A stretch of DNA of 64,000 nt from an uncultured Gammaproteobacteria bacterium. Its GTDB lineage: Bacteria; Patescibacteriota; Patescibacteriia; UBA9934; GWF2-40-263. The stretch covers positions 163,442-227,441 of the forward strand of contig CAYOCD010000001.1 of assembly GCA_964402425.1 (NCBI GenBank), written 5' to 3'. The notes under the pieces were generated by a model. That model was not told the origin of the DNA and did not search any database. It saw only the letters and a list, made by a program, of their open reading frames with translations. Both the position numbers and the translations under genes were made by a program. This document shows positions 9,812 through 46,444 of the stretch, in pieces (positions within the stretch are counted from its first letter, which is position 1; every line of letters starts with the position of its first letter).

Positions 9812-9849
9812 AAAAAACTCGACGCATTCACGTCGAGTTTTTTGTTTTC
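9812..9849 (+). terminator. Rho-independent terminator after der
   Basis: aaaaaa-ctcgacg-cattca-cgtcgag-ttttttgttttc: 7-bp GC-rich stem plus T-run. It is followed by a cataat -10-like box ahead of pth. Confidence 0.8.
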
Positions 9850-35830: not shown

Positions 35831-36265
35831 CTACACAACAGATCCACCAGCTTGTTCAATCTTTTCTTTTGCAGAAGCAGATACAAGGCAACCTTGAAGA
35901 ACAATCTTTGAAGCAATTGTTCCTTTTCCAAGAACTTTAATGGTTGCTGTCGCATCTGTAATAAGTTTTTTTGCAAGCAAGTGTTTTGGGGTAATTTTAC
36001 CTCCATCAATAAACATTTTTGCAAGATCTCCAATATTCAAAACTTGAGCTTTTGGATTCTTTGCTTTAAATCCACGTAATTTTGGTGTGGAAAGAATGAT
36101 TTTGCGCATTCCTTTCAACTTCAATCCAGAAACACCAGAACGTGCCCCTTGTCCTTTAACTCCACGACCGGAGTAAGTTCCTTTAGATCCCAAACCACGA
36201 CCGATATATTTTCGATCCTTTTTTGAGTGTGGACTTGGTTTCAGTGTGTGAAGTGAAAGTGACAT
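35831..36265 (-). CDS. rplO: 50S ribosomal protein L15
   Basis: GRGxGSGKGKTSGRG-type Gly-rich N-terminus. Start taken at MSLSLHTL; abuts rpsE with no L30 gene in between. Confidence 0.9.
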   Translation of the reverse strand: MSLSLHTLKPSPHSKKDRKYIGRGLGSKGTYSGRGVKGQGARSGVSGLKLKGMRKIILSTPKLRGFKAKNPKAQVLNIGDLAKMFIDGGKITPKHLLAKKLITDATATIKVLGKGTIASKIVLQGCLVSASAKEKIEQAGGSVV

Positions 36266-36269
36266 ACAA

Positions 36270-36857
36270 TTATTTTTTGGAATCATTCAATGATTGAATG
36301 GCAAGAAACGTTGCGTGAGCGATGTTGATTTTATTATTTGAGTTCAAAATTTTTGAAACAGCATTTGGTACACCCGCGTATTCAAGAATAACACGCATTG
36401 CACCCCCGGCTTTTAATCCAGAACCTTTTGGTGCTGGCTTCAACATAACAATTGCAGAACCTAACTTTACCGTTACGGCATGAGGTAAGGTCTCTTGAAC
36501 CATCGGAACAGTGATCAGGGTCTTTTTTGCTTGTCGGTAAGCTTTATCAACAGCAATTTGTACGTCTGCACCTTTTGCAACACCAAATCCAACACGTCCT
36601 TTTCGATCACCAATAACAAGCGCGCAACGGAAAGACATGCGCTTACCACCAGCTGTCACACGTGTAACACGTGCAAGGTCAAGAATTTTTTGATCAAATT
36701 CTCTTGGTTCTTTTTGCTCGCGACCTGGGCGTTTTCCGCCTTTTCCGCGTGTATCACCTTTTCCACCAAAAGATTTTTCCCCAGAAGCAGAACCTGCTCC
36801 GCTGGGCTTTTGGCCAGATGATGTTTTTGGTCGTGTAGTTGTTTGTGCGTTTGTCAT
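36270..36857 (-). CDS. rpsE: 30S ribosomal protein S5 with a Gly/Lys-rich N-terminal extension
   Basis: dsRBD plus S5 C-terminal domain. Extension is about 50 aa. Confidence 0.95.
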   Translation of the reverse strand: MTNAQTTTRPKTSSGQKPSGAGSASGEKSFGGKGDTRGKGGKRPGREQKEPREFDQKILDLARVTRVTAGGKRMSFRCALVIGDRKGRVGFGVAKGADVQIAVDKAYRQAKKTLITVPMVQETLPHAVTVKLGSAIVMLKPAPKGSGLKAGGAMRVILEYAGVPNAVSKILNSNNKINIAHATFLAIQSLNDSKK

Positions 36858-39258: not shown

Positions 39259-39630
39259 TTAGAGCACTTCTGGTGCAAGAGAAATAATTTTATTATATCC
39301 ACCAGCACGCAATTCACGAGCAACCGGTCCAAAAATACGTGTACCTTTTGGATCCTTTGTCTTTTTATCAATGATCACAGCTGCGTTTTCATCGAAACGG
39401 ATGTAAGTTCCATCTTTTCGGCGCGTCTCTTTGCGAGTACGCACCATAACAGCGGTGATAACATCACTCTTTTTAACAGCAGCGTGTGGAACAGCTTCCT
39501 TCACAGAGCAAACAACGAGTTCGCCCAAGTGAGCATAGCGCTTTTGGAAGCCTCCGAGTACGCGAATAACCATGAGCTTTTTAGCCCCTGTATTATCTGC
39601 AACTTTGAGCATTGAGAATTCTTGTACCAT
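39259..39630 (-). CDS. rplN: 50S ribosomal protein L14
   Basis: Order and sequence match. Confidence 0.95.
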
Positions 39631-39709
39631 AGATTGAAAATTTGTAGTTGGTCGTTCGAGTCAAGAAATGAATAATCATTCCCTCACATCGAACGACGAA
39701 CTGTTTGTT

Positions 39710-39955
39710 TTACGCAACAACGGTCCAACGTTTCGTCTTCGAAAGAGGACGGCATTCTTTAAATGAGACCATTTGTCCAATTTCATATGTACCCGTTGGT
39801 GCATGCACATGAAACTTTTCACTGCGCACATAACGCTTTCCATATTTTGGATGCACGAGTGTTCGGTCAACACGAACCACAATTGTTTTATCCATTTTGT
39901 TGGATGTAACAACCCCAGTAAATGCGCGTCGAATTGTGCTAATCTTTGTGTTCAT
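39710..39955 (-). CDS. rpsQ: 30S ribosomal protein S17
   Basis: Order and sequence match. Confidence 0.95.
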   Translation of the reverse strand: MNTKISTIRRAFTGVVTSNKMDKTIVVRVDRTLVHPKYGKRYVRSEKFHVHAPTGTYEIGQMVSFKECRPLSKTKRWTVVA

Positions 39956-43295: not shown

Positions 43296-43931
43296 TTACG
43301 CTCGCTTGTAAGTTTGAGTGACCATGTCGATTGCCTCTTTTGAGATCAATACAACATCTGCTTTTAAGAGATCGACAACGTTTAATGTGTTTGCTGGCAT
43401 TGTTACAACCCCTTTCATGTTCTGTGCTGCAATTGCAACATCTTTTTGTGCCGGTGGAAGAACAATGAGTGTTTTCTTTTTTGAAATTGGCAAATTCTTG
43501 AGAATCATTCCTAATTCTTTTGTTTTTCCATCTTTGAGGTTTAACTCATCGATAGCAACAAAACGATCAGACGAAACCTTTTCAGACAAGATCATTGCAA
43601 GCGCTTTTCGTTTTGCGCGCTTGTTAATTTTCAAAGAAAAATTACGGTCATTACGTGGTCCGAAAGTGATTCCACCACCAACCCAAATTGGGGATTTTGT
43701 AGAACCGTGTCGAGCACGTCCTGTTCCTTTTTGCTTCCATGGCTTTTTACTTGAACCAGCAACTTCTCCACGTGTTTTTGTGTGTGCAATTGCTTCACGA
43801 GAGTTTGCTTGTTGAGCAACAACAGCTTCGTGAATAAGTGCAGGATTCATTTTCACATCAAATAAACTCGCTTCGAGCGTGAGCGATCCAACTTTTTCAC
43901 CTTTTGTATTGAGGAGGGATACTACTGCCAT
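43296..43931 (-). CDS. rplD: 50S ribosomal protein L4
   Basis: Order and sequence match. Confidence 0.95.
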   Translation of the reverse strand: MAVVSLLNTKGEKVGSLTLEASLFDVKMNPALIHEAVVAQQANSREAIAHTKTRGEVAGSSKKPWKQKGTGRARHGSTKSPIWVGGGITFGPRNDRNFSLKINKRAKRKALAMILSEKVSSDRFVAIDELNLKDGKTKELGMILKNLPISKKKTLIVLPPAQKDVAIAAQNMKGVVTMPANTLNVVDLLKADVVLISKEAIDMVTQTYKRA

Positions 43932-44554
43932 AATTGTTTTCTTTCATGTGAACGAACCAAGATAAGTCCTCCACGCGCTCCTGGAATTGCACCCTTGACT
44001 GCAAGTAAGTTTTTATCTGCATCAAAGGAAACAATTTCGAGATTTTTAACAGTCACACGCATATCACCCATATGCCCACCCATGCGTTGACCCTTGATAA
44101 CTTTTCCTTGGCGCTGAGAACCAATGGAACCTCCCATACGTTGCTGGTCCTTGTTACCATGAGTTGCCTTACTTCCAGAAAAGTGGTGACGCTTCATAAC
44201 ACCAGCAAATCCGCGTCCTTTAGAAACACCGACAATATCAACTTTTGTACCAGGAATAAAATCACTTACACGGATTTCAGCTCCGCGTACATAATTCTCT
44301 GGAACACGCGCCACACGAAATTCACGCAAGGTTTTCACTTGCGGAAGATCAAGGAGGTGCCCCGCTTCACTCTTAACGAGTAATTTGGTTGTAACCTCAG
44401 ATCCGACTTGAACCGCAACATAACCGTCGCGTGATTCTTCGCGGATTTGGGTAACAATATTTGGCTCAGCTTTAATAAGCGTAACCGGAACGACGGTACC
44501 GTCATCCTTAAATTGTTGTGTCATTTCAACTTTGCGTCCGATGATAAATGGCAT
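43922..44554 (-). CDS. rplC: 50S ribosomal protein L3
   Basis: Start taken at MPFIIGRK; the longer track start adds 4 aa. Confidence 0.95.
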   Translation of the reverse strand: MPFIIGRKVEMTQQFKDDGTVVPVTLIKAEPNIVTQIREESRDGYVAVQVGSEVTTKLLVKSEAGHLLDLPQVKTLREFRVARVPENYVRGAEIRVSDFIPGTKVDIVGVSKGRGFAGVMKRHHFSGSKATHGNKDQQRMGGSIGSQRQGKVIKGQRMGGHMGDMRVTVKNLEIVSFDADKNLLAVKGAIPGARGGLILVRSHERKQLWQ

Positions 44555-44566
44555 ACGTGTTTTCAA

Positions 44567-44858
44567 TGCTTACTAGCACAAAAGCTAGAAGTCGACAGTT
44601 ATTCTACTAAATAACAATCGGCTTCTAGCCCCTAATACAATATCTCCAAAATACTGGAGTAAAACGTTTGTACGAAGGAATTGTTGCTTACAATGTAATA
44701 ATCTCCGAAACAATCTTTCAAAGCTCAGGAAGGTTTTCTTGCAGGTACAAACCAAATGCGTAAGATCTTTCTTCCTTGTTTAATTGATTGGTTGATTTCC
44801 GTCAGGCTTCAGAAGCAAAGAAGACTTCTTTTTCTCTGAAGCCTGACCGAAGTCAGGG
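44567..44858 (-). other. Unusually long (about 290 nt) structured non-coding spacer between rpsJ and rplC
   Basis: Contains a 13-bp inverted repeat gtcaggcttcaga...tctgaagcctgac (about 44800-44850) and an 8-bp IR gctagaag...cttctagc with nested gttatt/aataac (about 44590-44640). No ORF of 60 aa or more. Confidence 0.5.
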
Positions 44859-45194
44859 TTATGTTTTGATTTCGACATCGACACCTGCTGGGAGGTTTAA
44901 ACTCATCAGAGCATCAATGGTTTTGTCTGTTGTTTCTGTGATGTCGATAATGCGTTTATGAACACGCATTTCGAACTGATCACGAGAATCCTTATGAACG
45001 AAGGTGGAGCGGTTAACGGTGTATTTCTTCTTCTCTGTTGGAAGAGGAATTGGACCAATCACTTTTGCTCCCGAACGCTCGATTGTTTTTAAAATTGTTT
45101 CTGTAGCTTGATCAATGATCTTGCTATCATACGCACGAATTTTAATACGCAAGCGAGGTTTGTCTTCTTGTTCTTTTTTTGTTGTATTCGTCAC
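44859..45194 (-). CDS. rpsJ: 30S ribosomal protein S10
   Basis: Order and sequence match. Confidence 0.95.
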
Positions 45195-45250
45195 AATAAT
45201 GAAAGAAAGAACGATGTGTAAGAGGCGAAAAGCGCCCCTTACACGTTAAA

Positions 45251-46444
45251 TTACTTGATAATTTTTACAACGATTCCAGCTCCAACTGTTTTTCCACCTT
45301 CACGAATTGCGAAGTTCATCTTTTCTTCCAAAGCAACAGGGTGAATGAGTTTAACAGTTGCGCTAACAGTATCTCCAGGCATAACCATTTCTGTTCCTTC
45401 TGGAAGAACAACTTCACCTGTTACGTCTGTTGTACGAACGTAGAACTGTGGCTTATACCCCTTAAAGAATGGTTTATGACGTCCACCCTCTTCTTTTGTA
45501 AGAGCGTAAATTTCTGCTTCGAATTCTGTGTGAGGTGTAATGGATCCTGGTTTTGCAAGAACCATTCCGCGCTCTACATCTTCTTTCTTGATTCCACGAA
45601 GCAAGATTCCTGCATTGTCTCCAGCAAGACCTTGTGACAAAGACTTGTTGAACATTTCGATTCCTGTAACGATTGTTTTTTGTGGTTCTTCATGGATTCC
45701 GACCAATTGAACTTCATCGTTCAAATTGATGGTTCCGCGTTCAATACGTCCTGTTACCACTGTTCCACGTCCTTCAATAGAGAAGACGTCTTCAATTGGC
45801 ATGAGGAGTGGCTTGTCTGTTTCACGAACGGGTTCTGGAATATAGGAATCAAGTGCTGCAACGATATCCATGATGCACTTTGATGCTTCTGCATCTGTTG
45901 GGTTGTTGAGTGCCTTAAGAGCTGATCCGCGAATAACAGGCACTTCGTCACCTGGGAATTTGTATTTTTTCAAAAGATCGCGAACTTCTTCCTCAACAAG
46001 ATCAATAAGTTCTGGATCATCCACCATGTCAACTTTGTTTAAGAAGACCACCATGGCAGGGACTCCAACTTGGTGTGCAAGCAAGATGTGCTCACGTGTT
46101 TGTGGCATTGGTCCGTCTGCAGCTGATACAACCAAGATCGCACCATCCATCTGAGCAGCACCCGTAATCATGTTCTTGATGTAGTCCGCGTGTCCTGGAC
46201 AGTCCACGTGAGCGTAGTGACGCTTTTCAGACTCATATTCACAGTGGGCAGTAGCGATGGTAATTCCACGAGCTTTTGACTCTGGAGCTTTATCCAAATC
46301 GTCCATTCCCTTTGTTTGTGCAGCAAGTCCTCTCGCACCCAAAACGGCGAGGAGGGCAGCTGTTGTTGTGGTTTTTCCGTGGTCAACGTGACCAATGGTT
46401 CCAACGTTAACGTGCGGCTTGGTGCGCGCAAATGCTTCTGCCAT
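45251..46444 (-). CDS. tuf: Elongation factor Tu
   Basis: [18 protein letters not shown]. 397 aa. Confidence 0.97.

What the first reader, a model, noticed from the sequence alone, without database searches (positions are those of the whole stretch)
44567..44858. 290-nt structured non-coding gap splitting rpsJ from rplC
The r-protein block is otherwise packed with 3-15-nt spacers. This gap holds a 13-bp and an 8-bp inverted repeat with nested small hairpins and no T-run directly after the rpsJ-proximal hairpin. It may be an autoregulatory leader (for example L4- or L3-responsive attenuator), an internal promoter for rplC-onwards, or a small ncRNA.
Basis: seen in the sequence. Interest (0 to 1): 0.5.

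Follow-up and report, generated by a model that had tools for sequence, protein, structure and literature searches.

The report
Conserved structured leader before rplC
The 300-base gap between the S10 and L3 ribosomal-protein genes of this Uhrbacteria (candidate phyla radiation) genome holds a structured RNA leader, conserved across relatives and absent from Rfam, that ends in a terminator-like hairpin just before the L3 start codon and most likely lets a ribosomal protein throttle the downstream ribosomal-protein operon.

Summary
On the minus strand, rpsJ (44859-45194) and rplC (43922-44554) are separated by 304 nt (292 nt if the TTG at 44566 is used). The gap folds far better than shuffles (z = -6.2).

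The window is from Candidatus Uhrbacteria (Patescibacteria/CPR). All 25 Uhrbacteria loci from the genome scan and 11 of 11 further loci fetched independently have the same gap.

From 5' to 3', the gap holds:
- a hypervariable, very stable hairpin after the rpsJ stop, with no U-run;
- a conserved internal-loop hairpin, D1;
- a conserved sequence block, D2 (GCUUYN...ACGGAGA);
- a stem, P3/P4;
- a 20-bp hairpin, T, with a near-invariant lower stem (GCUAGAAG/CUUCUAGC), followed by UUUU 7-30 nt before the rplC ATG in most relatives.

D1 and T both show compensatory base changes. No Rfam family matches, there is no coding signal, and a sigma-70-like promoter is not conserved across the family.

Best reading (about 0.55): a new ribosomal-protein leader that works by attenuation and/or translational repression of rplC and the genes after it. 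It is analogous to, but not homologous with, the E. coli L4/S10 leader and the archaeal L4 leader upstream of rplC. The ligand (L4 or L3) is inferred, not shown. Resemblance to 23S helix 97 was not supported by a covariance-model scan of E. coli rRNA.

The parts
44859..45194 (-). rpsJ (ribosomal protein S10), the upstream gene. It follows tuf after 56 nt.
   Evidence: Pfam Ribosomal_S10, E = 4.8e-35. ORF list.
44793..44855 (-). Hairpin A: a very stable long hairpin starting 3 nt after the rpsJ stop, with no U-run after it. Its sequence is hypervariable among relatives, but a hairpin is kept.
   Evidence: Inverted repeat I1. Folding of the region upstream of D1 gives dG -35 kcal/mol here and -29 to -46 kcal/mol for the single-hairpin regions in most relatives, from unrelated sequences. 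It is absent in L009, L018, L024 and L040.
44842..44857 (-). Mini-hairpin CCUGAC-UUCG-GUCAGG. It competes with the base of hairpin A and occurs only in the window's own clade.
   Evidence: Inverted repeat I6. Present in WIN, L001-L004 and L207.
44727..44777 (-). Domain D1, a conserved internal-loop hairpin. P1 is AGGAAG (44776-44771) paired with CUUCCU (44732-44727). The internal loop is AAAGA opposite AAAC. P2 is UCUU (44765-44762) paired with AAGA (44740-44737), and the apex is variable.
   Evidence: Alignment A1 and pair counts: 91.6% of cells paired against 81.7% in shuffles, and 6 of 10 pairs change on both sides. RNAalifold finds the same helices de novo. Covariance model R1 hits 44722-44782 at 69.6 bits (E = 3e-19); the next best hit in 64 kb scores 13.8 bits.
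44695..44726 (-). Block D2, the conserved sequence GAGCUUUGAAAGAUUGUUUCGGAGAUUAUUAC. The family consensus is GCUUYN(8-14)ACGGAGA. In the window it is predicted to form a hairpin, CUUUGAAA paired with UUUCGGAG. It overlaps a sigma-70-like match.
   Evidence: Alignment. MFE. The GGAG is predicted to be mostly paired (mean P(unpaired) 0.27). Covariation is inconclusive. Promoter-like match at 44721-44692.
44630..44678 (-). P3/P4: stem P3 (5' strand CCUU.CGUACAA, 3' strand UUGUAU.AGGG) encloses the small hairpin P4 (44659-44644). The 3' strand of P3 abuts hairpin T.
   Evidence: MFE. Relatives show matched changes: CCUCG/CGAGG, CCUUCA/UGAAGG, CUUACA/UGUAAG, CCUCAAAAC/GUUUGAGG. In a strand-swap test, a sequence's own 3' strand gives -6.55 kcal/mol against -4.87 for foreign strands. 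The test is not discriminating in the window's own clade.
44584..44629 (-). Hairpin T, the terminator-like hairpin. The lower stem is conserved: GCUAGAAG paired with CUUCUAGC, then a C-A mismatch, then CGAU paired with GUCG. The upper stem and loop are variable.
   Evidence: dG -21.5 kcal/mol. Alignment A2: 92.3% of cells paired against 76.5% in shuffles and 35-55% when the partner is slid, and 13 of 21 pairs change on both sides. RNAalifold de novo. Model R2 hits 44574-44636 at 73 bits, the only site in the window (the other match is the same palindrome read on the opposite strand). Frequent G-U pairs fit the gene strand only.
44577..44583 (-). U-run UUUUGUG directly after hairpin T.
   Evidence: Sequence. 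CUUUU(A/G/C)U is invariant in the family.
44555..44576 (-). Short tail between the U-run and the rplC ATG. There is no Shine-Dalgarno motif. In the window's clade, a small hairpin GUGCU-AGUA-AGCAU (44579-44566) spans the end of the U-run and the start of this tail.
43922..44554 (-). rplC (ribosomal protein L3), the first gene after the leader. It is followed without gaps by rplD, rplW, rplB and the rest of the cluster.
   Evidence: Pfam Ribosomal_L3 and Ribosomal_L4. 97% identical to L3 of a Candidatus Uhrbacteria MAG.

Best explanation
[quoted passage not shown] It is transcribed as a continuation of the tuf-rpsJ message.

Its conserved parts are the D1 internal-loop hairpin, the D2 block, the P3 stem, and the sequence-conserved lower stem of hairpin T. 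I propose that these form the binding site for a ribosomal protein made from the downstream genes. L4 is the candidate by precedent, and L3 because its gene comes first.

When that protein exceeds free rRNA, binding would stabilise the D1-P3-T fold. Hairpin T followed by UUUU would then stop transcription (attenuation). In read-through transcripts it would also occlude the rplC start codon, which has no Shine-Dalgarno sequence and lies 7-30 nt downstream (translational repression). The downstream genes are packed tightly enough to be translationally coupled, so control at rplC would spread down the operon.

Shown here: the leader exists, it is conserved, D1 and T have covariation-supported helices, it is specific to this junction, and T has the anatomy of a terminator. 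Inferred: that it is transcribed from upstream, that T terminates conditionally, and which protein is the ligand.

Hairpin A is a separate, fast-evolving accessory. It may be a processing site or stability element at the end of the tuf-rpsJ message.
For: 1. Conservation. A 198-431-nt rpsJ-rplC gap is present in all 25 Uhrbacteria loci from the genome scan (L3 identity down to 58%). Gaps of 178-542 nt occur in other Patescibacteria, whereas several Paceibacterota and unnamed-bacterium MAG loci (L057, L065, L079, L046, L059) have 13-22 nt.
2. Structure with covariation in D1 and in T. P3 is supported by matched changes and by a swap test.
3. Independent test. Eleven loci fetched through L3 homologues all carry D1 (43.7-70.7 bits) followed by T (34-73 bits) inside the gap. 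L214 equals L012 and L213 equals L216, which leaves about 9 new sequences. On this set 97% of D1 cells are paired and 5 of 10 pairs change on both sides.
4. Specificity. Each model has one site in the 64-kb window and none in about 45 loci from Proteobacteria and other phyla.
5. Terminator anatomy. T is a 20-bp hairpin of -17 to -29 kcal/mol followed by an invariant UUUU, 7-30 nt from the ATG in most relatives. The same genome uses classic hairpin-plus-U-run terminators elsewhere, for example at 9817/9845, 13835/13857, 48846/48870 and 53067.
6. No room for a promoter between T and rplC in most relatives, so expression of rplC requires reading through T.
7. Genes here lack Shine-Dalgarno motifs, so a stable hairpin next to the start codon should matter for initiation.
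8. Architecture parallels the E. coli L4-interacting leader: variable 5' helices, a conserved hairpin upstream of a terminator hairpin, a U-run, then the first regulated start codon (PMC3616713). A candidate L4 leader sits upstream of rplC in Archaeoglobi (PMC7247131).
Against: - No binding, termination or expression data exist.
- No ligand is identified.
- I found no alternative (antiterminator) pairing that covaries.
- The U-run has only four U, which is weak for an intrinsic terminator.
- The rRNA-mimicry test failed. Model R1 did not recover 23S helix 97 or any other site in the E. coli rrn operon (best E = 0.56). No Uhrbacteria rRNA was available to test.
- The structure of D2 is unresolved.
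- The conserved sequence of the T stem is unusual for a plain terminator and might serve another function.
- In some relatives (L009, L010, L013, L027, L030, L212, L215) 60-160 nt follow T, enough for a promoter.
Confidence: 0.55

Rival explanations
1. Unregulated operon punctuation. Hairpin A and hairpin T are constitutive processing, stability or partial-termination elements that separate the highly expressed tuf-rpsJ message from the rplC operon and set a fixed expression ratio. The conserved blocks D1, D2 and P3 would then serve RNase recognition, or act as a platform for de novo ribosome loading at rplC in an organism without Shine-Dalgarno sequences. No feedback ligand would be involved.
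For: - Hairpin A is a 20-25-bp near-perfect duplex with hypervariable sequence. That is typical of a nuclease or stability element rather than a specific operator.
- A similar strong hairpin sits in the only other sizeable gap in the cluster, rpsQ-rplN.
- Genes lack Shine-Dalgarno motifs, and the 300-nt gap breaks translational coupling, so rplC needs its own initiation device.
- No antiterminator was found.
Against: - The near-invariant loop nucleotides of D1 (A-N-A-G-A opposite A-A-A-C) and the invariant lower stem of T, kept across lineages with only 58-70% L3 identity, point to specific macromolecular recognition beyond a generic hairpin.
- Some related Patescibacteria manage with 13-22-nt rpsJ-rplC spacers, so the element is not needed for basic expression.
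Confidence: 0.2
2. An independent small RNA gene, trans-acting or housekeeping, with its own promoter in or near the end of rpsJ or hairpin A and with T as its terminator. rplC would then be expressed by leakage through T.
For: - The core is compact (about 200 nt), conserved and highly structured, and ends in a hairpin plus U-run.
- No known family matches, as is often the case for sRNAs.
Against: - Its position is fixed between rpsJ and rplC in every genome examined, and it occurs nowhere else.
- No conserved promoter lies upstream of D1.
- T abuts the rplC start, so the RNA is necessarily part of the rplC 5' UTR whenever rplC is expressed.
- It does not match the SRP, 6S, RNase P or tmRNA models.
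Confidence: 0.08
3. A riboswitch-like sensor of something other than a ribosomal protein, such as an alarmone, an ion, a tRNA or another factor. D1-D2-P3 would be the aptamer and T the expression platform.
For: - The two-part layout, a conserved multi-helix 5' domain followed by a terminator hairpin, is the standard riboswitch layout.
- Several loop nucleotides are invariant.
Against: - No Rfam riboswitch class matches, even at E <= 10.
- No mutually exclusive antiterminator supported by covariation was found.
- The gene context is purely ribosomal proteins, where protein feedback is the established precedent (PMC3616713, PMC7247131).
Confidence: 0.07
4. The main conserved function lies in the DNA: an internal promoter for rplC and the genes after it, located in block D2 (TTGAAA-18-TACATT, 44721-44692).
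For: The scan finds this 9-of-12 match in the window. An equivalent site occurs in 11 of 33 relatives.
Against: - The region holds no more promoter-like sites than shuffles do (4 found, 4.5 expected).
- 15 of 33 relatives have no site, and the spacing between the two hexamers drifts to 21-22 bp in others.
- A promoter does not explain the compensatory changes in D1, P3 and T.
- D1 would lie upstream of the transcript start.
Confidence: 0.05

Closest known systems
E. coli / Gammaproteobacteria L4-interacting RNA (S10 operon leader)
   Same: It is a leader within the S10 ribosomal-protein gene cluster. Both have variable 5' helices, a conserved hairpin upstream of a terminator hairpin, a U-run, and then the start codon of the first regulated cistron. 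In E. coli this arrangement gives both attenuation and translational repression by L4 (PMC3616713).
   Different: The E. coli leader lies upstream of rpsJ, whereas this one lies downstream of rpsJ and upstream of rplC, so S10 is outside the controlled unit. There is no detectable sequence or structure homology (no Rfam hit). Here the lower stem of the terminator is itself invariant in sequence, whereas E. coli helix HE is variable. The ligand is untested here.
L4 r-leader candidate of Archaeoglobi (Eckert & Weinberg 2020, PMC7247131)
   Same: A structured element directly upstream of rplC-rplD-rplW-rplB. The S10 gene is not part of the controlled unit. This is the operon boundary typical of archaea, where S10 follows the elongation-factor gene (the last point is from my own knowledge).
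   Different: It is an archaeal lineage and a different RNA family (no Rfam match at E <= 10). That motif was rated uncertain ('?') by its authors.
S10 r-leader of Firmicutes/Clostridia (cited in PMC7247131)
   Same: A candidate ribosomal-protein leader associated with the same gene cluster.
   Different: It lies upstream of rpsJ. It has no match to this sequence in the Rfam scans, although I could not confirm that the motif is in Rfam.
Bacillus subtilis infC-rpmI-rplT leader (L20-dependent transcription attenuation, PMC1865079)
   Same: An r-protein controls a terminator in a roughly 200-nt leader. It shows that protein-dependent attenuation of r-protein operons exists outside E. coli.
   Different: Different operon, ligand and RNA. 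The L20 leader is described as mimicking L20's rRNA site. For the present leader no such mimicry could be shown.

Membership tests
Ribosomal-protein leader (autogenous cis-regulatory RNA), generic class | Lies in the 5' UTR or intercistronic region immediately upstream of an r-protein gene or operon | tested here: met
   It lies between rpsJ and rplC in the window and in 36 related loci.
Ribosomal-protein leader (autogenous cis-regulatory RNA), generic class | Conserved secondary structure supported by compensatory changes | tested here: met
   In D1, 6 of 10 pairs change on both sides. In T, 13 of 21 do. Both exceed the shuffle and slide controls.
Ribosomal-protein leader (autogenous cis-regulatory RNA), generic class | Resembles the rRNA binding site of the regulating protein (common but not universal) | tested here: inconclusive
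   By eye, D1 resembles E. coli 23S nt 2731-2772 (helix 97). Model R1 does not recover that site or any other in the E. coli rrn operon (best E = 0.56). No Uhrbacteria rRNA was available.
Ribosomal-protein leader (autogenous cis-regulatory RNA), generic class | Bound by an r-protein encoded in the operon, with repression of expression | not testable with these tools
   This needs binding, in vitro transcription or reporter experiments.
E. coli-type L4-interacting S10 leader | Located upstream of rpsJ, overlapping the S10 start | tested here: not met
   The element is downstream of rpsJ. The tuf-rpsJ spacer is only 56 nt.
E. coli-type L4-interacting S10 leader | Homologous helices HD-HG (sequence and structure similarity) | tested here: inconclusive
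   No Rfam family matched the window or 20 related loci. I could not confirm that this leader is represented in Rfam, and no direct alignment with the E. coli leader was made.
L4-Archaeoglobi r-leader | Match to the family covariance model | tested here: inconclusive
   There was no hit at E <= 10 in 44400-45300. That the family is in Rfam 15 rests on my recollection, not on a check.
Intrinsic (factor-independent) terminator / attenuator | Stable G+C-containing hairpin immediately followed by a U-run on the transcribed strand | tested here: met
   T has dG -21.5 kcal/mol and is followed by UUUUGUG. The pattern is conserved in the family.
Intrinsic (factor-independent) terminator / attenuator | RNA 3' ends at the U-run, and conditional read-through | not testable with these tools
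   No transcript data are available.
Known riboswitch classes (Rfam) | Match to a riboswitch covariance model | tested here: not met
   No riboswitch family matched at the gathering score or at E <= 10.

The most novel reading that the evidence does not exclude
The conserved D1-D2-P3 domain is an aptamer for a signal other than a ribosomal protein, for example an alarmone, an ion or an uncharged-tRNA-like cue. Hairpin T would be its expression platform. That would make it a CPR-specific riboswitch class gating almost the whole ribosomal-protein super-operon, in organisms with minimal regulatory repertoires.
Probability: 0.07. Interest if true: 0.8.

Novelty: new member of a known kind. Interest (0 to 1): 0.5.

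Why it matters
No ribosomal-protein feedback element turned up for the candidate phyla radiation in the literature I searched or in Rfam 15. These organisms have tiny genomes, few regulators and, in this genome, no Shine-Dalgarno-guided initiation.

A conserved leader placed after rpsJ rather than before it has two implications. First, S10 (also the transcription factor NusE) is expressed with EF-Tu, outside the controlled unit, as in archaea. Second, control of the L3-L4-L23-L2 block has been reinvented with a new RNA.

The element is well defined: two covariance models, about 35 sequences, and invariant loop and stem nucleotides. This makes the open question of how CPR bacteria balance ribosomal-protein and rRNA synthesis directly testable, using binding and in vitro termination assays with L3 and L4. 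The models also give annotation pipelines a new marker for Uhrbacteria and related lineages.

Tried and rejected
1. rRNA mimicry of 23S helix 97. By eye, GGAAGAGAUAAG...GAAACUUGCC (E. coli nt 2731-2772) resembles D1. The internal loops differ (4x4 against 5x4), and model R1 did not find that site. Not supported, though E. coli is a distant proxy.

2. Other by-eye rRNA resemblances were judged too short to mean anything: 23S nt ~213-224 (GGAAAAGAAAUC), the L11/GAR loop (GGCUUAGAAGCAGCC against GGCUAGAAGCC), and the L4 region at 295-343. The mini-hairpin GGCU-AGA-AGCC is not conserved.

3. A BoxA-like element in D2 (GCUUUGAAA) or upstream of D1. Only GCUUY is conserved. Rejected.

4. An antiterminator formed by CUUCCUGAGCUUU pairing with the 5' arm of T. 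The lineages with a GGUCAG arm do not compensate. Not supported.

5. A small ORF or leader peptide. Similarity between relatives appears in all six frames, over 14-52 codons, with no preferred frame. Rejected. GGAG followed 6-11 nt later by AUU/AUC is noted but unexplained.

6. A conserved sigma-70 promoter. Not conserved.

7. The metagenome pattern scan (AGGTTTTC N12-42 GATCTNTCTYC) was too loose. A viral-contig scan gave 5 identical low-scoring chance hits without T.

8. Structure-aware alignment (mafft-xinsi / mafft-qinsi) was not usable because MXSCARNA is missing. The fold of D2 therefore remains unresolved.

Full report
**What is there.** All genes in this part of the window run on the minus strand: tuf (45251-46444), rpsJ (44859-45194), rplC (43922-44554), rplD (43296-43931) and the rest of the S10/spc cluster. 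Their identities were confirmed with Pfam.

Comparison with L3 homologues places the start at the ATG at 44554, so the non-coding stretch is 304 nt, 44555-44858.

The region folds much better than dinucleotide shuffles: z = -6.2 for the whole gap and z = -3.8 for the 206-nt core. The cluster is otherwise tightly packed, except for a 79-nt rpsQ-rplN gap that carries its own strong hairpin.

**Where it comes from and how conserved it is.** L3 is 97% identical to that of a Candidatus Uhrbacteria MAG (Patescibacteria, Parcubacteria group).

- In all 25 Uhrbacteria loci retrieved from the species-representative genome collection (L3 identity 58-97%), rpsJ and rplC are separated by 198-431 nt.
- Other Patescibacteria have 178-542 nt.
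- Several Paceibacterota and unnamed-bacterium MAG loci (L057, L065, L079, L046, L059) have only 13-22 nt.

Alignment of the spacers shows conserved blocks separated by variable, indel-rich stretches.

**Anatomy, 5' to 3' on the RNA (window coordinates).**

1. Hairpin A (44855-44793). The region upstream of D1 folds at -35 kcal/mol here and at -29 to -46 kcal/mol for the single-hairpin regions in 21 of 26 Uhrbacteria-group sequences (25 loci plus the window). The sequences are unrelated between lineages, and no U-run follows.
2. D1 (44777-44727). Helix P1 is GGAAG paired with CUUCC. The internal loop is near-invariant (A-N-A-G-A opposite A-A-A-C). Helix P2 starts with U-A and C-G, and the apex is variable.
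3. D2 (44726-44695). The conserved sequence is GCUUYN...ACGGAGA. It is predicted to form a hairpin, but covariation is inconclusive.
4. P3/P4 (44678-44630). The 3' strand of P3 (..GAGG) abuts the next helix. Matched changes are visible among lineages. A strand-swap test favours each sequence's own 3' strand (-6.55 against -4.87 kcal/mol), though not in the window's own clade.
5. Hairpin T (44629-44584). It has about 20 bp. The lower stem GCUAGAAG/CUUCUAGC is almost invariant, a C-A mismatch is conserved, and the upper stem is variable.
6. UUUU(A/G/C)U (44583-44577).
7. A tail without a Shine-Dalgarno motif, leading to the ATG. The tail is 22 nt here, and the U-run begins 7-30 nt from the ATG in most relatives.

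**Statistical support.**

| Measure | D1 (28 sequences) | T (26 sequences) |
|---|---|---|
| Cells forming standard pairs | 91.6% | 92.3% |
| Same, column shuffles | 81.7 +/- 1.1% | 76.5% |
| Same, partner slid by 1-3 columns | 45-65% | 35-55% |
| Pairs changed on both sides | 6 of 10 | 13 of 21 |

RNAalifold predicts the same helices without guidance. Many G-U pairs in T fit only the gene strand.

Covariance models of D1 (R1) and T (R2) each find a single site in the 64-kb window, at 69.6 and 73 bits. The next best R1 hit scores 13.8 bits. Neither model finds anything in about 45 loci from Proteobacteria and other phyla.

As an independent test, I fetched 11 further loci through L3 homologues that were not used for model building. 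All 11 have tuf-rpsJ-gap-rplC, and all carry D1 followed by T within the gap. After removing one locus identical to a training sequence and one duplicate, about 9 are new, and several share only short stretches with any training spacer. On this set 97% of D1 cells are paired and 5 of 10 pairs change on both sides.

More distant Patescibacteria keep recognisable variants:
- GGAGAAAGAUC...GAAAACCUCC;
- a three-way-junction version, GGAGUAAGUUG...CAUAACCUCC, with a C-G to G-C swap at the closing pair of P2;
- T-like hairpins CCAGAAG...CUUCUGG followed by U5.

**What it is not.**
- No Rfam 15 family matches the window at gathering thresholds.
- None matches the gap at E <= 10.
- None matches 20 related loci.
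- It is not coding. Similarity between relatives appears in all six frames with no preferred frame.
- A sigma-70-like site in D2 (TTGAAA-18-TACATT) has an equivalent in only 11 of 33 relatives, and 15 have none. A promoter therefore cannot be the function conserved across the family.
- In most relatives there is no space for a promoter between T and the rplC start. Any rplC transcript must therefore contain T, which argues against a free-standing sRNA gene.

**How it most likely works.** The layout is a conserved protein-sized recognition domain, then a hairpin plus U-run, then the first cistron of a long, tightly packed ribosomal-protein operon. This is the layout of an autogenous ribosomal-protein leader.

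The genome uses ordinary hairpin-plus-U-run terminators elsewhere, so T is a credible terminator. Its short U4 tract fits a leaky, conditional one.

Genes here lack Shine-Dalgarno motifs. A stable hairpin a few nucleotides from the ATG should therefore also hinder initiation.

I propose that a protein encoded downstream stabilises the D1-P3-T fold when it is in excess. L4 is the candidate by precedent, and L3 because it is the first product. Binding would increase termination at T and mask the rplC start. Coupling would pass the effect down the operon.

This matches the logic of the E. coli L4-interacting leader: variable 5' helices, a conserved hairpin HD, a terminator HE, a U-run and the start codon (PMC3616713). 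It also matches the position of the candidate L4 leader upstream of rplC in Archaeoglobi (PMC7247131). No homology to either is detectable.

The ligand, conditional termination and co-transcription with rpsJ are inferences. I found no covarying antiterminator. That is compatible with a protein-plus-NusA type of attenuation, but it is also compatible with a constitutive element.

**rRNA mimicry.** By eye, D1 and its flanks resemble E. coli 23S nt 2731-2772 (helix 97). The internal loops differ, however, and an unbiased scan of the E. coli rrn operon with R1 did not recover that site.

**Novelty and score.** The literature searches found no described leader for rplC, or for any r-protein operon, in the candidate phyla radiation.

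I therefore class this as a new member of a known kind: a ribosomal-protein leader or attenuator. Its unusual feature is that it sits downstream of rpsJ. That places S10/NusE with EF-Tu and outside the regulated unit, as in archaea (that comparison is from my own knowledge).

Interest is 0.5. The RNA family is solid, well delimited and previously unannotated, and it occurs in an under-studied phylum with a testable mechanism. The mechanism class itself is familiar, and function has not been demonstrated.

Noticed in passing
window 39631-39709 (minus strand), between rpsQ (39710-39955) and rplN (39259-39630): This is a second exception to the tight packing. The 79-nt spacer holds a long hairpin (MFE -32.9 kcal/mol, z = -5.8) with no U-run directly after it. 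It resembles hairpin A and sits at the classical S10/spc operon boundary.
   Followed up: partly
[quoted passage not shown]: No Shine-Dalgarno-like motif lies upstream of the genes: 10 of 63 ORFs of at least 150 aa have one, against a 10% background. T is at position -1 in 32 of 63. The organism appears not to use Shine-Dalgarno-guided initiation, which makes the conserved GGAAG/GGAG/GAGG/AGAAG motifs inside the leader stand out.
   Followed up: partly
window 44695-44726 and equivalent positions in L001-L024, L040 and L207-L217: The conserved GGAG of block D2 is followed 6-11 nt later by AUU or AUC in most relatives. This is Shine-Dalgarno-to-start spacing, but with near-cognate codons and no conserved ORF. 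It is unexplained. It could be a decoy site, a pairing partner or coincidence.
   Followed up: partly
window 45216-45244 (minus strand), tuf-rpsJ spacer: A 12-bp hairpin (GTGTAAGGGGCGCTTTTCGCCTCTTACAC) with a weak U-rich tail lies 20 nt before the rpsJ start. tuf-rpsJ spacers in the nine newly fetched loci where both gene ends were called are 26-165 nt (most 26-59), suggesting co-transcription.
   Followed up: no
window 35831-36857: The S5 gene (36270-36857) is followed directly, with overlap, by the L15 gene (35831-36286). There is no L30 gene, a trait I recall as reported for CPR bacteria (from my own knowledge; not checked here).
   Followed up: partly
window 44842-44857; also L001-L004 and L207: A UUCG-capped mini-hairpin (CCUGAC-UUCG-GUCAGG) starts 1 nt after the rpsJ stop codon. 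It is mutually exclusive with the base of hairpin A. A terminating ribosome would cover it, so it could couple rpsJ translation to the folding of hairpin A. It occurs only in the window's own clade.
   Followed up: no
L212 1231-1373; L009 and L040 between hairpin T and rplC: Hairpin T of L212 carries a ~80-nt apical insertion (the model match spans 143 nt) made of tandem GTCGTTGAGTCGTTAAGTC-like repeats. L009 and L040 carry TTAGCC/ATTAGCC repeats and an extra hairpin between T and rplC. The apex of T and the tail tolerate large insertions.
   Followed up: no
L035, L038, L044, L045, L049, L052, L063, L066-L068, L072, L074-L076 and L080 (mostly Gamma- and Betaproteobacteria MAGs): Several Proteobacteria also have rpsJ-rplC gaps of 100-290 nt. 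The D1 and T models do not match them, and what they contain was not examined.
   Followed up: no
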